A DNA stretch of 64,000 nucleotides from Candidatus Heimdallarchaeota archaeon (GTDB taxonomy: Archaea > Asgardarchaeota > Heimdallarchaeia > JABLTI01), in contig JAHLVW010000036.1 in NCBI GenBank assembly GCA_019058275.1, positions 64,001 through 128,000 on the forward strand, written 5' to 3'. Below the pieces are notes generated by a model. The model was not told where the DNA came from. It saw nothing but the letters and a program-made list of their open reading frames with translations, and searched no databases. Numbering within the stretch: position 1 is the stretch's first letter; every line of letters begins with the position of its first letter. A program made the position numbers and the translations under genes. Shown piece after piece: positions 12,226-14,565 of this stretch.

Positions 12226-12621
12226 TCAAAGCTTCTTCCATATCATTTCTACTAGTTTTCCTATTTTCTCAACAACAGGTACCATTGCTTCTGCTGAAGC
12301 TAAACCAACATCTCGAGCGATTTTCATTAATGAAGTGTGAGAATCAATTACTTTGTCTCCTTCCTCATAAACTACGAAACTACATGGAAATAGTAAACCC
12401 ACGTTATAGTGTGCTTCCAATGACATCTTTGTTAATTCTGAACCACATGCAAGAATTGTAGTGTATTTTGGTTGATCAATTATACCAAGTTTCTTCTTAA
12501 ATATTTCATCTATCGATTTAACAAGCAAAACTGAAAAGCCTTCTTCTTGAACTGTTTTATTGACGTGTTCTGCAGCTTCATCAAAACTCATTAACATATC
12601 TTTTTTTAGAACTTCAACCAT
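12226..12621 (-). CDS. DUF302 family protein
   Basis: YTTILAC...VGLLFPCSFVVYE. Confidence 0.85.
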   Translation of the reverse strand: MVEVLKKDMLMSFDEAAEHVNKTVQEEGFSVLLVKSIDEIFKKKLGIIDQPKYTTILACGSELTKMSLEAHYNVGLLFPCSFVVYEEGDKVIDSHTSLMKIARDVGLASAEAMVPVVEKIGKLVEMIWKKL

Positions 12622-12826
12622 TTTTTATCACCTATTCAATAGGTAATCTTCCTTGTTAAAAAGCTCCATGACTTTATTTCTAAGGTATAACATGGCAGAA
12701 ATTACTAAAAAAAATAAAAAATATTGTATCCATCATTTCAGATAGATTTAATTACTTGAGAATAATTGTCACTAATAATTCTTCCATAATTTAAAGATGA
12801 TAGCAAATAAGTAGGGAAAGTAAAAA

Positions 12827-13249
12827 ATGTCTGCTGGTAGAATTGTGAGACTTTTTATTAGTCATTCATGGGATCATGATGATGATTATATTAATCTTAT
12901 TAAACTACTCCGAAAAATAGACATGTTTGAATTTTACAATTATAGCGTTCCTGAATATGATCCTCTTGTAGCTGATGGTGATAAAGAATTAATGCAGGAA
13001 CTTTGTGATCAACTGCGAGGATGTCAAGTACTAATAGTTATTGCTAGTGTGTATCCTTCCTATAGTGAATGGATACAAAAGGAAGTATTAATAGCACGTG
13101 TCTATGGTAAACCAATTCTTGGAGTTATTCCAAGAGGACAAAAACGAATTTCTACTTTTGTTAGAACATATTCTGACAAACTAGTTGGATGGAATTCTAT
13201 ATCAATTGCTAAAGCGATTATTAAATTACTAGAAGAGGATAAACGCTGA
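12827..13249 (+). CDS. TIR-domain protein, ThsB/MTH538 (DUF1863) type
   Basis: FISHSW, NYSVP..DP, SEWIQKE (catalytic-position E86), KPILGV, VGWNS. Confidence 0.88.
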   Translation: MSAGRIVRLFISHSWDHDDDYINLIKLLRKIDMFEFYNYSVPEYDPLVADGDKELMQELCDQLRGCQVLIVIASVYPSYSEWIQKEVLIARVYGKPILGVIPRGQKRISTFVRTYSDKLVGWNSISIAKAIIKLLEEDKR

Positions 13250-13251
13250 TT

Positions 13252-13815
13252 TTATACAAATGGATTTGGGATTACCTCTTTAGCAACTAGTATCAAAATT
13301 ACTGATATTGTAACTAGAGCTATTGAATACAGACTAAGTAAGCTAATTGGTATCCATTGTTCTATAAAGGTTAATTCATGATGCTTCTTCAATGGTTTCT
13401 CTTGTAATTTGCTGATTTGCCATTCAGCAAGTAACCCCTTAACCGGTAATTTTTTCTCAATCTCATTAATAACTTTGTATTTGCAACTGTTAAGATTCTT
13501 ATAATAGATAATAAGCAACCACCAACTAATAGAAACAAAAATACCTACGATTAAAATCATTGGAACAACTACAACTAAATCATTACTCATTAAAATGCCC
13601 AAAGCAACAAAAAGGAAACTATTAGCTGTGAGATAGAAACTGTTTGTTGTTGCTCTACGAGCACTGATTCTGTCAGCCATTTCAACATAAAGCTTGTACT
13701 GATCAAAAATAAGACTAGTATTATCTTGAAGACTATCTTTTGTGTTAAACATCTCTTCCAGAGGATTCTTATCATTCGATTTTGTTGACTGTTTTATTGC
13801 TTTTTTGTCAGGCAT
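13252..13815 (-). CDS. Small multi-TM protein, candidate pore-type effector (RipA/SLATT-like)
   Basis: QYKLYVEMADRISARRATTNSFY + 2 TM + W..I..YKNLNSCKYKVINEIEKKLP..EW + TM. Confidence 0.65.
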   Translation of the reverse strand: MPDKKAIKQSTKSNDKNPLEEMFNTKDSLQDNTSLIFDQYKLYVEMADRISARRATTNSFYLTANSFLFVALGILMSNDLVVVVPMILIVGIFVSISWWLLIIYYKNLNSCKYKVINEIEKKLPVKGLLAEWQISKLQEKPLKKHHELTFIEQWIPISLLSLYSIALVTISVILILVAKEVIPNPFV

Positions 13816-14010
13816 AAAATCACAAACTAGTTCTTGAACTTTTCACTTATACAATATCCAAATCAGTGCTACCTTAAAAATTTTTGTTGTAAACCTCAAA
13901 TAGCAATCTGAACTAATTTTTTTATTAAATATTCGATACATTTTAAACTGCAATGTATGATGAAAATTATAACTGGTAAATTCGATTCTTAAAATGAAGG
14001 ATGATATTGT

Positions 14011-14565
14011 ATGTTTGAAGGAAAAATGGTAAGGCTACGGTCATTTGAATTAGAAGATTTAGATAGCATCATGCAACAATGGAATAAGATTAATTTGCGA
14101 AGAGAACTAGGTCCAATTGTTCCACATTCACGTAAAGAAAGGGAAGATTGGATTAGAAAAACGTGGGTTGATAGAAGAAATGGAAAAGCTTATGCCTTTG
14201 CAATAGATGATCTCAAAACTGGTGAATTCTTAGGCCATTGCATTCTAAATAATGTCAGATCAATAAACAGAACTGCATCAATTAGTGTAGCAATCTATGA
14301 TGAGAATAATCGTAGTAAGGGATATGGTACTGATGCAGTTAGAGTCTTACTAAAATTTGGTTTTGATTATCTAAATCTGCACCGAATTGGCTTAAATGTC
14401 TTCGATACAAATCCTAGAGCAATTCATGTTTATGAAAAAGTAGGTTTCAAGAAAGTAGGTATAATGAGACATACTGATTTCGTTGGGGGCGTATATGTAA
14501 ACGATGTAGCAATGGACATTCTTGAGGATGAATGGAGAGAATTGTATAAAAAAGAAAAGAAATAG
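14011..14565 (+). CDS. GNAT acetyltransferase, RimJ/RimL type
   Basis: RSKGYGTDAV, FDYLNLHRI, NPRAIHVYEKVGF. Confidence 0.92.
   Translation: MFEGKMVRLRSFELEDLDSIMQQWNKINLRRELGPIVPHSRKEREDWIRKTWVDRRNGKAYAFAIDDLKTGEFLGHCILNNVRSINRTASISVAIYDENNRSKGYGTDAVRVLLKFGFDYLNLHRIGLNVFDTNPRAIHVYEKVGFKKVGIMRHTDFVGGVYVNDVAMDILEDEWRELYKKEKK

What the first reader, a model, noticed from the sequence alone, without database searches (positions are those of the whole stretch)
12827..13815. TIR enzyme facing a small membrane protein: candidate Thoeris-like antiviral pair
Seen: a ThsB/MTH538-type TIR retaining the catalytic-position glutamate (SEWIQKE86), ending 2 nt from the stop of a 187-aa multi-TM protein. 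Established: Thoeris TIRs turn NAD+ into signal molecules that trigger ThsA effectors (SIR2-SLOG or TM-Macro). Neither effector type is in the window. The TM protein has no obvious ligand-binding domain and looks like small oligomeric pore-type proteins. Inference: a non-canonical TIR + membrane effector defence module, relevant to the ancestry of eukaryotic TIR immunity. The convergent rather than operonic layout is unusual and weakens the linkage.
Basis: partly seen in the sequence, partly recalled or inferred. Interest (0 to 1): 0.75.

Follow-up and report, generated by a model that had tools for sequence, protein, structure and literature searches.

The report
Asgard TIR plus RipA-like membrane effector
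Two tail-to-tail genes in a Heimdall-group Asgard archaeon encode a Thoeris-type TIR signalling enzyme and a three-helix membrane protein of the 8xMP/RipA family, a pair that stays together across archaea, bacteria, plasmids and viruses and is most likely an anti-virus alarm-and-kill module that a 2025 preprint lists as a candidate but nobody has tested.

Summary
A 140-aa ThsB-type TIR (12827-13249, +) carries an invariant Glu86 at the catalytic position. Its stop codon lies 2 nt from the stop of a 187-aa three-TM protein (13252-13815, -). That protein belongs to Pfam PF24838, '8xMP', which NCBI names the RipA family.

The convergent layout does not weaken the link. All 10 TIR genes of this type found in 61 Heimdall-class genomes lie next to an 8xMP gene. 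Within the genus the pair sits at two different chromosomal sites, always tail-to-tail. Other Asgard genomes carry 8xMP next to TIRs in co-directional or divergent layouts. At least 51 of 80 loci from other species, mostly bacterial, have a TIR directly beside 8xMP, usually just upstream, as do plasmids and 5 of 7 viral contigs.

The pairing matches the untested '3TM' candidate class in Yirmiya et al. 2025 (bioRxiv 10.64898/2025.12.03.692087). It is not the validated DUF2270, SLATT or SIR2 type. This scan has already found TIR+8xMP pairs on other DNA at least eight times, including another Heimdall genome.

Most likely the TIR senses infection and makes an ADP-ribose-derived signal that opens or assembles the 8xMP ring. 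I rate it a new member of a known kind, of moderate interest. I found no support for a special link to eukaryotic TIR ancestry.

The parts
12827..13249 (+). thsB-like gene: a 140-aa single-domain TIR enzyme and the predicted sensor and signal producer. Glu86 occupies the catalytic position in the W82-x3-E86 motif.
   Evidence: ORF. PF08937 E 1.3e-15 and PADLOC ThsB1 E 2.4e-11. F10, I11, H13, W15, W82, E86, P102 and W122 are invariant in 17 homologues. The AF2 model has pLDDT 87 with a beta-alpha fold. Foldseek matches EcThsB 8wcf (E 5e-6, TMq 0.70), SARM1 and TIR-1 TIR domains, and MTH538.
13252..13815 (-). 8xMP/RipA-family gene: a 187-aa three-TM membrane protein and the predicted effector. 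Predicted topology is N-terminus in the cytoplasm, a TM hairpin at about 58-103, cytoplasmic helices at 104-137, and TM3 at about 153-178.
   Evidence: ORF. PF24838 E 1.1e-35. NCBI calls homologues 'RipA family octameric membrane protein'. Q39, Y40, A47, S51, R54, N58, W98, Y105, L108, K112, E120, E131 and E152 are invariant in 38 sequences. The AF2 model has pLDDT 83.7 with helices 33-77, 81-120, 127-137 and 146-178. Hydropathy agrees.
13250..13251 (.). Two-base spacer between the convergent stop codons. The 3' ends of the two transcripts must therefore overlap or terminate inside the partner gene.
   Evidence: Sequence read. The same tail-to-tail junction, with 8-12 nt between the open frames, occurs in same-genus relatives.
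12622..12826 (+). AT-rich intergenic region upstream of the TIR gene, with a TTTAAA element about 35 nt before the ATG. It is a presumed separate promoter and is not tested.
   Evidence: Sequence read. This is inference only, because AT-rich hexamers are common in a 30% GC genome.
13816..14010 (-). AT-rich intergenic region upstream of the 8xMP gene, shared with the divergent GNAT gene. It is a presumed promoter region and is not tested.
   Evidence: Sequence read. This is inference only.
12226..12621 (-). DUF302 gene: the left boundary of the insertion site. It is context and not part of the module.
   Evidence: PF03625 match. In G010 and G008 this gene lies directly beside the GNAT gene with no TIR/8xMP pair between them.
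14011..14565 (+). GNAT acetyltransferase gene: the right boundary of the insertion site. It is context and not part of the module.
   Evidence: PF13302 match. Synteny comparison.

Best explanation
The two genes form a Thoeris-type antiviral module. The single-domain ThsB-like TIR is the sensor and signal generator. On infection it converts NAD+ into an ADP-ribose-derived nucleotide, probably a cyclic ADPR isomer. Its TIR subfamily is the one the 2025 preprint links to types IV, VII and VIII, which make N7-cADPR or canonical cADPR. The 8xMP/RipA-family protein is the effector. It is a small three-TM protein that forms a ring in the membrane. It would bind the signal at a conserved, partly basic cytoplasmic juxtamembrane site (R53/R54, K112 with E120, E131, E152). 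It would then open or rearrange to breach the membrane, stopping the infected cell before virus release. Shown here: the family identities, the retained catalytic Glu, the three-TM topology, and a very strong gene linkage that does not depend on gene order. Inferred: NAD+ chemistry, the identity of the signal, ligand binding by 8xMP, ring formation in this protein, membrane damage, and protection against viruses. In this genus each gene has its own promoter and the genes converge. The cassette has nevertheless moved as a unit, which argues that selection keeps the two together.
For: Identities come for the TIR and for 8xMP.

Linkage within Heimdallarchaeia. All 10 TIR loci of this type in 61 genomes lie next to an 8xMP gene, and identities fall in parallel (TIR 94 to 39%, 8xMP 92 to 46%).

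The cassette moved as a unit. In G000 and G003 the pair lies between DUF302 and GNAT. In G010 and G008 those two genes are adjacent, and the same tail-to-tail pair sits elsewhere; in G010 it lies between a subtilase and an MFS transporter. G009 and G006 carry other cargo in that gap.

Other gene orders in Asgard genomes. G035 (Hodarchaeota) has 8xMP followed by two TIRs, behind two STING-domain proteins. G042 has 8xMP followed by a TIR, directly behind a type I restriction HsdR C-terminal fragment and a YgjP-like gene. G009 has a TIR and 8xMP in divergent orientation.

Outside Asgard. 48 of 80 species-representative loci have a TIR ORF within 600 nt by my HMMs, mostly 10-90 nt upstream on the same strand. 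Three more were found by Pfam.

Plasmids. Polaromonas has HsdR-TIR-8xMP-PIN, Clostridium perfringens has caspase-TIR-8xMP-TIR, and Halorubrum pHLAC01 has TIR followed by 8xMP.

Viral contigs. 5 of 7 loci have an adjacent TIR.

Negative control. None of 12 haloarchaeal DUF2270 loci has a TIR by the same HMMs.

Metagenomes. At least 16 TIR and 8xMP clusters share the same longest-contig length.

No other candidate partner. The genome has no SIR2_2 match and only this one ThsB_TIR.

Precedent. TIR plus small oligomeric membrane effector is validated for Thoeris types V (3'cADPR) and VII (cADPR).
Against: No member of the TIR+8xMP class has been tested for defence; it is absent from the 30 operons tried in Table S2 of the preprint. 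The 8xMP protein has no PADLOC model hit. About 29 of the 80 8xMP loci show no TIR with my tools, and some have other neighbours, namely S1-domain proteins or pentapeptide repeats. The only studied family member I know of, Francisella RipA, is linked to LpxA and intracellular growth, not to defence. That RipA is the founding member rests on the NCBI family name and my own knowledge. The immediate neighbours in this window are not defence genes. Convergent genes cannot be co-transcribed, so stoichiometry and timing are not coupled as they are in an operon.
Confidence: 0.7

Rival explanations
1. The roles are reversed. The 8xMP ring senses a membrane or envelope disturbance caused by infection, and it activates the TIR, which then acts as an NAD+-depleting killer rather than as a signal producer.
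For: Some prokaryotic TIRs act as NADase effectors, for example in CBASS, Pycsar and SPARTA; the preprint had to filter these out. The TIR is tiny at 140 aa and has no obvious sensor domain. Foldseek also matches the SPARTA TIR.
Against: Pfam and PADLOC place the TIR with ThsB. TIR entries in Table S1 with the same conserved sequence pattern are listed next to types IV, VII and VIII, whose TIRs produced signals on infection; this resemblance was judged by eye, not measured. In other loci 8xMP sits with two or three different TIRs, or beside a caspase effector. That is the pattern of one effector served by several ThsB sensors. Small membrane proteins are the effectors in every characterised TIR, CBASS or Pycsar pairing cited.
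Confidence: 0.12
2. The pair is a real two-gene unit but is not antiviral. A TIR-made nucleotide would regulate a membrane channel for stress or envelope physiology, or the pair behaves as a toxin-antitoxin-like addiction module of mobile elements.
For: Francisella RipA has a physiological role in the envelope, not a defence role. The window's neighbours are housekeeping-type genes. The pair is frequent on plasmids and viral contigs, as addiction modules are.
Against: Archaea have no LpxA or lipid A pathway. The distribution is patchy even within one genus, and the chromosomal position is variable. The pair is embedded with restriction-modification, PIN, caspase and STING genes in other genomes. 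All of this is the signature of defence genes.
Confidence: 0.1
3. The adjacency is chance. An orphan TIR and an unrelated RipA-like housekeeping membrane protein happen to be neighbours, held together only by local synteny within one genus.
For: The convergent orientation rules out co-transcription. Synteny within a genus is expected in any case.
Against: The pair occupies two different chromosomal sites within the genus. TIR and 8xMP are also adjacent in other Asgard families in three other orientations, in at least 51 of 80 loci from other species, on plasmids and on viral contigs. In a genome of a few thousand genes, the chance that a given gene lies next to one specific single-copy gene is well below one in a hundred.
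Confidence: 0.02

Closest known systems
Putative 'TIR + 3TM' Thoeris configuration (Yirmiya et al. 2025, bioRxiv 10.64898/2025.12.03.692087, Fig. 1C and Table S1)
   Same: A small ThsB-type TIR sits next to a roughly 150-200-aa three-TM protein. I linked that class to 8xMP directly. The TIR of Halorubrum lacusprofundi pHLAC01 is an exact or near-exact match to two Table S1 entries labelled '3TM'. Its downstream neighbour is PF24838 (E 1.5e-26). Other '3TM' TIR entries show the same FISHSW...NYSVP...YS.WI..E pattern as the window's TIR.
   Different: The class is only predicted; it is not among the 30 operons tested. The preprint does not use the 8xMP or PF24838 names. [quoted passage not shown] Here the host is an Asgard archaeon.
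Type V Thoeris (ThsB + ThsF, DUF2270/PF10028; signal 3'cADPR)
   Same: It pairs a TIR with a small three-TM effector that is modelled as a ring with charged pockets between protomers. One TIR identical to the TIR beside an 8xMP gene in L073 is even labelled 'DUF2270 - Type V' in Table S1.
   Different: 8xMP is not detectably DUF2270. PF10028 gives no hit on any 8xMP protein tried or in their genomes. A profile-profile comparison with haloarchaeal DUF2270 gives a probability of 0.9%. I could not obtain the validated Bacillus ThsF sequences.
Type VII Thoeris (ThsB + ThsH, SLATT membrane effector; signal canonical cADPR)
   Same: It uses a small membrane-spanning oligomerising effector. A type VII TIR entry in Table S1 (Pseudohongiella) carries the same conserved sequence pattern and the same cluster label as the '3TM' TIR entries.
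   Different: No SLATT family matches the window's membrane protein at E 0.1 or better. ThsH is modelled as a filament, not a ring.
Canonical Thoeris types I and II (ThsA SIR2-SLOG; TM-Macro effector)
   Same: The logic is the same, a ThsB TIR signalling to a separate effector. Loci with several TIRs per effector occur here as they do in canonical Thoeris.
   Different: The genome has no SIR2_2 match, and there is no Macro or SLOG domain next to the TIR. The effector has no recognisable soluble ligand-binding domain.
Francisella tularensis RipA (namesake of the NCBI family name)
   Same: NCBI gives homologues of the window's protein the family name 'RipA family octameric membrane protein'. RipA is a small conserved inner-membrane protein.
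   Different: RipA is studied for intracellular growth and for a genetic and physical link to LpxA, a pathway that archaea lack. I did not test whether Francisella RipA itself matches PF24838 or lies next to a TIR. No RipA structure turned up in the PDB copy, either by sequence profile or by fold.

Membership tests
ThsB-type TIR (PF08937), Thoeris signal producer | Sequence match to the family model above its curated cut-off | tested here: met
   PF08937 scores 58 bits against a cut-off of 21.2. PADLOC ThsB1 gives E 2.4e-11.
ThsB-type TIR (PF08937), Thoeris signal producer | TIR (flavodoxin-like beta-alpha) fold | tested here: met
   The AF2 model has pLDDT 87. Foldseek matches EcThsB 8wcf (E 5e-6, TMq 0.70), B. 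cereus TIR 8fz9, SARM1 and TIR-1, and MTH538 (TMt 0.76).
ThsB-type TIR (PF08937), Thoeris signal producer | Catalytic glutamate in the W-x3-E helix motif | tested here: met
   W82 and E86 are invariant in 17 homologues with 31-79% identity to the window's TIR. E86 aligns with the KE of the Paracoccus TIR 3h16.
ThsB-type TIR (PF08937), Thoeris signal producer | Infection-triggered conversion of NAD+ into a signalling nucleotide | not testable with these tools
   This needs an enzyme assay and LC-MS.
8xMP / RipA family (PF24838) | Sequence match above the curated cut-off over the whole model | tested here: met
   122.8 bits against a cut-off of 30, covering model positions 1-134 of 136. The ESM Atlas nearest clusters are 8xMP.
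8xMP / RipA family (PF24838) | Small protein with a cytoplasmic N-terminal helix, a TM hairpin and a third TM helix | tested here: met
   AF2 helices at 33-77, 81-120, 127-137 and 146-178. Hydropathy peaks at 64-106 and 154-187.
8xMP / RipA family (PF24838) | Octameric ring assembly | not testable with these tools
   An eight-copy model cannot be run here, and no solved homologue was found in the PDB copy.
'TIR + 3TM' putative Thoeris class (Yirmiya et al. 2025) | A ThsB TIR immediately adjacent to a three-TM protein of this family | tested here: met
   The genes are adjacent here. The class equals 8xMP, shown through the Halorubrum pHLAC01 match.
'TIR + 3TM' putative Thoeris class (Yirmiya et al. 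2025) | Both genes in one co-directional operon | tested here: not met
   In this genus the genes converge, with stops 2 nt apart in the window and 8-12 nt between the frames in relatives. Co-directional versions exist in G035, G042 and bacteria.
'TIR + 3TM' putative Thoeris class (Yirmiya et al. 2025) | Protection against viruses | not testable with these tools
   The preprint did not test this class either.
Type V Thoeris effector ThsF (DUF2270, PF10028) | Match to PF10028 or detectable homology to its members | tested here: not met
   There is no PF10028 hit at E 1 or better on the 8xMP proteins or in their genomes. hhalign of 8xMP against 8 haloarchaeal DUF2270 proteins gives a probability of 0.9%.
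Type VII Thoeris effector ThsH (SLATT) | Match to a SLATT family model | tested here: not met
   No SLATT family appears in the Pfam scan at E 0.1 or better.
Type I Thoeris (ThsA SIR2-SLOG) | A SIR2-SLOG effector gene near the TIR or elsewhere in the genome | tested here: not met
   No SIR2_2 match exists in the 4.1-Mb assembly, which is 93% complete, and none among the neighbours.

The most novel reading that the evidence does not exclude
Heimdall-group archaea maintain their own lineage of a Thoeris type whose effector is the 8xMP/RipA ring, gated by a cyclic ADP-ribose-type signal. Operon-based and model-based defence finders would miss it, because the genes converge and 8xMP has no defence model. 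It would then be the missing target of the Tad2-like sponge that a 2026 study found in a virus predicted to infect Kariarchaeaceae, whose hosts had no complete Thoeris system predicted (PMC13700489). The conserved tail-to-tail junction would couple the two genes through overlapping antisense 3' ends.
Probability: 0.2. Interest if true: 0.6.

Novelty: new member of a known kind. Interest (0 to 1): 0.4.

Why it matters
If the module works as proposed, TIR-based nucleotide signalling would be an active antiviral strategy in the archaeal group closest to eukaryotes. The widespread but uncharacterised 8xMP/RipA family would gain a biochemical role as a signal-gated membrane effector. It would also give a concrete candidate target for the Thoeris-type sponge genes seen in Asgard viruses.

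There is a practical lesson for genome surveys. The genus keeps the two genes together without an operon, so pipelines that require co-directional genes or known effector models may undercount such systems. The finding is not evidence for descent of eukaryotic TIR immunity from Asgard archaea, because the TIR is of the prokaryotic ThsB type and its distribution is patchy.

Tried and rejected
- **Solved structure of the family.** phmmer and a 38-sequence profile against PDB sequences found nothing relevant. Foldseek and VIA-align on the AF2 model returned only generic helical bundles with Z up to 9.4, below the level that is informative for helical proteins.
- **Self-association.** The job with four copies of 8xMP gave no verdict (score 0.33, mark 0.42). 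I count it neither for nor against.
- **Literature searches.** Searches for '8xMP', 'PF24838' and 'octameric membrane protein' found no relevant paper. Searches on 'RipA' were swamped by RIPA buffer.
- **Is 8xMP the same as DUF2270 (ThsF)?** Rejected on sequence. PF10028 was also not found in 68 genomes of the order of the L073 genome (Flavobacteriales).
- **Validated Bacillus type V effector.** I tried to reach it through a 75-residue TIR fragment against plasmids. That returned only TIRs next to Macro or SIR2 genes, so the family of the validated ThsF remains unchecked by me.
- **SLATT relationship.** Considered and rejected.
- **Defence island in this window.** Rejected. The seven nearest proteins have no PADLOC hit except the TIR.
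- **Tad2 (DUF2188) in this genome.** None found.
- **Partners of the two divergent 8xMP paralogues.** They have no Pfam family and are not similar to each other.
Full report
**What is there.** The window holds two convergent ORFs exactly as described. One is a 140-aa protein at 12827-13249 (+). The other is a 187-aa protein at 13252-13815 (-). Their stop codons (TGA at 13247-13249, TAA at 13252-13254 on the other strand) are two bases apart. The region has the same roughly 30% GC as the rest of the window.

**The TIR.** The first protein is a ThsB-type TIR.
- It matches PF08937 at 58 bits against a cut-off of 21.2, and PADLOC ThsB1 at E 2e-11.
- PDB phmmer finds MTH538 at E 0.002.
- Its AF2 model (pLDDT 87) matches EcThsB, the B. 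cereus TIR, the SARM1 and TIR-1 TIR domains, and MTH538.
- W82 and E86 of the SEWIQKE motif are invariant across 17 homologues with 31-79% identity to it.

**The membrane protein.** The second protein belongs to Pfam PF24838, 'octameric membrane protein family (8xMP)', at 122.8 bits against a cut-off of 30. NCBI names the family 'RipA family octameric membrane protein'. Hydropathy and an AF2 model (pLDDT 84) agree on the layout. A cytoplasmic N-terminal helix runs into a TM hairpin, two cytoplasmic helices follow, and a third TM helix ends the protein. The 13 invariant residues of a 38-sequence alignment include R54, K112, E120, E131 and E152. They fall almost entirely in the cytoplasmic juxtamembrane helices.

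**The organism.** The closest records are named Candidatus Heimdallarchaeota. Earlier notes of this scan call the genome a Heimdall-group Asgard archaeon.

The comparative data say otherwise.
- Among 61 genomes of the same class, the TIR was found in 10 and the 8xMP protein in 12. Every TIR locus of this type is adjacent to an 8xMP gene. The two proteins diverge in step, the TIR from 94 to 39% identity and 8xMP from 92 to 46%.
- Within the genus the pair is always tail-to-tail, with 2-12 nt between the genes. It is not simply frozen synteny. In G000 and G003 it lies between a DUF302 gene and a GNAT gene. In G010 and G008 those two genes are direct neighbours, and the same convergent pair sits elsewhere; in G010 it lies between a subtilase and an MFS transporter.
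- In G009 and G006 the DUF302-GNAT gap holds an MscS-like gene, with a glycosyltransferase as well in G006. The pair is therefore a cassette that has moved as a unit.

**Other Asgard genomes show other gene orders.**
- A Hodarchaeota contig (G035) has 8xMP followed by two different ThsB TIRs on the same strand, directly behind two STING-domain proteins.
- G042 has 8xMP followed by a TIR of the second subtype, directly behind a type I restriction HsdR C-terminal fragment and a YgjP-like gene.
- G009 has that second TIR subtype divergent from an 8xMP gene.

**Beyond Asgard.** A scan of one genome per prokaryotic species found 366 relatives of the 8xMP protein, and the best 80 loci were kept.
- HMMs built from the two Asgard TIR subtypes find a TIR ORF within 600 nt of 8xMP in 48 of the 80. 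It is nearly always 10-90 nt upstream on the same strand.
- Pfam adds three more (L033, L046, L048).
- As a control, the same HMMs find no TIR in 12 haloarchaeal DUF2270 loci.
- Loci without a TIR have other neighbours. Actinomycetes carry a large S1-domain protein, and a methanogen and a cyanobacterium carry pentapeptide-repeat proteins.
- On plasmids the family appears in 36 records. Examples are Polaromonas HsdR-TIR-8xMP-PIN, Clostridium perfringens caspase-TIR-8xMP-TIR, and Halorubrum lacusprofundi pHLAC01 TIR followed by 8xMP.
- Seven IMG/VR viral contigs carry the family, five of them with an adjacent TIR.
- In a quick maximum-likelihood tree, all ten Asgard 8xMP sequences group together (SH-aLRT 94). 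The root is a midpoint and the sample is biased toward the query, so this is only suggestive of residence within Asgard archaea.

**What is known.** Yirmiya et al. (bioRxiv 10.64898/2025.12.03.692087) surveyed TIR neighbourhoods and validated Thoeris types V to XI. They listed 29 putative effector classes. Several validated effectors are small membrane proteins modelled as homo-oligomers with charged inter-protomer pockets. Examples are ThsF/DUF2270 in type V, which responds to 3'cADPR, and ThsH/SLATT in type VII, which responds to cADPR.

Table S1 of that preprint has a class called '3TM'. I tied this class to 8xMP directly. The pHLAC01 TIR matches two '3TM' entries exactly or nearly so, and its downstream gene is PF24838 at E 1.5e-26. 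The '3TM' class is not among the 30 operons tested, so the pairing is predicted but untested.

One TIR identical to the TIR beside an 8xMP gene in L073 is labelled 'DUF2270 - Type V'. However, 8xMP proteins do not hit PF10028, and profile-profile comparison with DUF2270 gives a probability of 0.9%. The L073 contig starts only 551 nt upstream of its TIR pair, so a DUF2270 gene may lie beyond its end. I therefore do not file the window's protein under ThsF.

The genome has no SIR2_2 match and only this one ThsB_TIR. This scan has already met TIR+8xMP pairs at least eight times on other DNA, including a tail-to-tail pair in another Heimdall genome.

**Mechanism.** The best-supported reading (0.7) is a Thoeris-type module. 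The TIR senses infection and converts NAD+ into an ADPR-derived signal. The 8xMP ring binds the signal on its cytoplasmic face and damages the membrane.
- Family identity, the catalytic residue, the topology and the linkage are shown here.
- The chemistry, ligand binding, oligomeric state and protection are inferred from precedent.
- The TIR shares its conserved sequence pattern with Table S1 entries paired with type IV, VII and VIII effectors, whose signals are N7-cADPR or cADPR.
- The C. perfringens operon places 8xMP beside a caspase effector. This makes a cyclic ADPR isomer the most likely signal, but that is inference only.

The rivals are reversed roles with the TIR as an NADase killer (0.12), a non-defence signalling or addiction function (0.10), and chance adjacency (0.02).

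**Context worth testing.** A 2026 study of the Asgard virome reports a Tad2-like Thoeris sponge in a virus predicted to infect Kariarchaeaceae. It notes that no complete Thoeris system was predicted in the putative host genomes (PMC13700489). A TIR+8xMP module would not be called a complete Thoeris by current models, since 8xMP has no PADLOC hit. It is therefore a candidate target. I could not determine whether this genome belongs to that family, and it carries no DUF2188 gene itself.

**Verdict.** I rate it a new member of a known kind, with interest 0.4. Its distinguishing points are the Asgard host and a tail-to-tail architecture conserved across two genomic sites. The structural searches, the four-copy complex job and the closed contig look-up tool gave nothing usable.

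Noticed in passing
L023:3-407 and L023:513-1445 (the same region as L032; Hodarchaeota contig JAUUVJ010000035.1): Two tandem proteins with prokaryotic STING domains (PF20300, E about 1e-12; PADLOC CBASS TIR-STING effector model) lie directly upstream of 8xMP and two ThsB TIRs in an Asgard archaeon. No CD-NTase was seen in the 3 kb downstream. The upstream side is cut by the contig start.
   Followed up: partly
L002:1378-2244 (own genome, contig C73) and L027:1315-1902 (G010 contig C31): These are divergent 8xMP paralogues without a TIR. Each lies next to a roughly 305-312-aa protein of no Pfam family that contains an R-x4-H-like motif (IRNIFAH, IRNRLYH). The two partner proteins are not similar by BLASTP. 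This may be a different sensor paired with the same effector family.
   Followed up: partly
window 12622-14010, compared with L108, L109 and L112: The gap between the DUF302 and GNAT genes is a variable spot in this genus. It is empty in G010 and G008. It holds an MscS-like channel gene in G009, an MscS-like gene plus a glycosyltransferase in G006, and the TIR/8xMP pair in G000 and G003.
   Followed up: yes
L130 (own genome, contig C31:374-757, minus strand): A second TIR (TIR_2, E 2e-18) with one in-frame TAG sits at the very start of a contig. It may be a pseudogene, an assembly-edge artefact or a longer multi-domain protein.
   Followed up: no
L073:967-1891: The TIR here is identical to a Table S1 entry of Yirmiya et al. 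labelled 'DUF2270 - Type V'. Its downstream neighbour, however, is an 8xMP protein with no PF10028 signal. Either the label covers a second effector beyond the contig end, or the preprint's DUF2270 class includes some 8xMP proteins.
   Followed up: partly
L034, L040, L041, L069 (Streptomyces and Kitasatospora); L047 and L094: In actinomycetes the gene upstream of 8xMP is a 450-650-aa protein with an S1 RNA-binding domain and a weak nucleoside 2-deoxyribosyltransferase-like hit. In a Methanotrichaceae and a Coleofasciculus genome the neighbours are pentapeptide-repeat proteins. These may be other sensor partners for the same effector.
   Followed up: partly
L114 (Clostridium perfringens plasmid NZ_CP065633.1, 12-16 kb): The operon caspase-family protein, TIR, 8xMP, TIR combines a type IV Thoeris-like pair with an 8xMP effector, about 2 kb from the cpb2 toxin gene on a mobilisable plasmid.
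   Followed up: no
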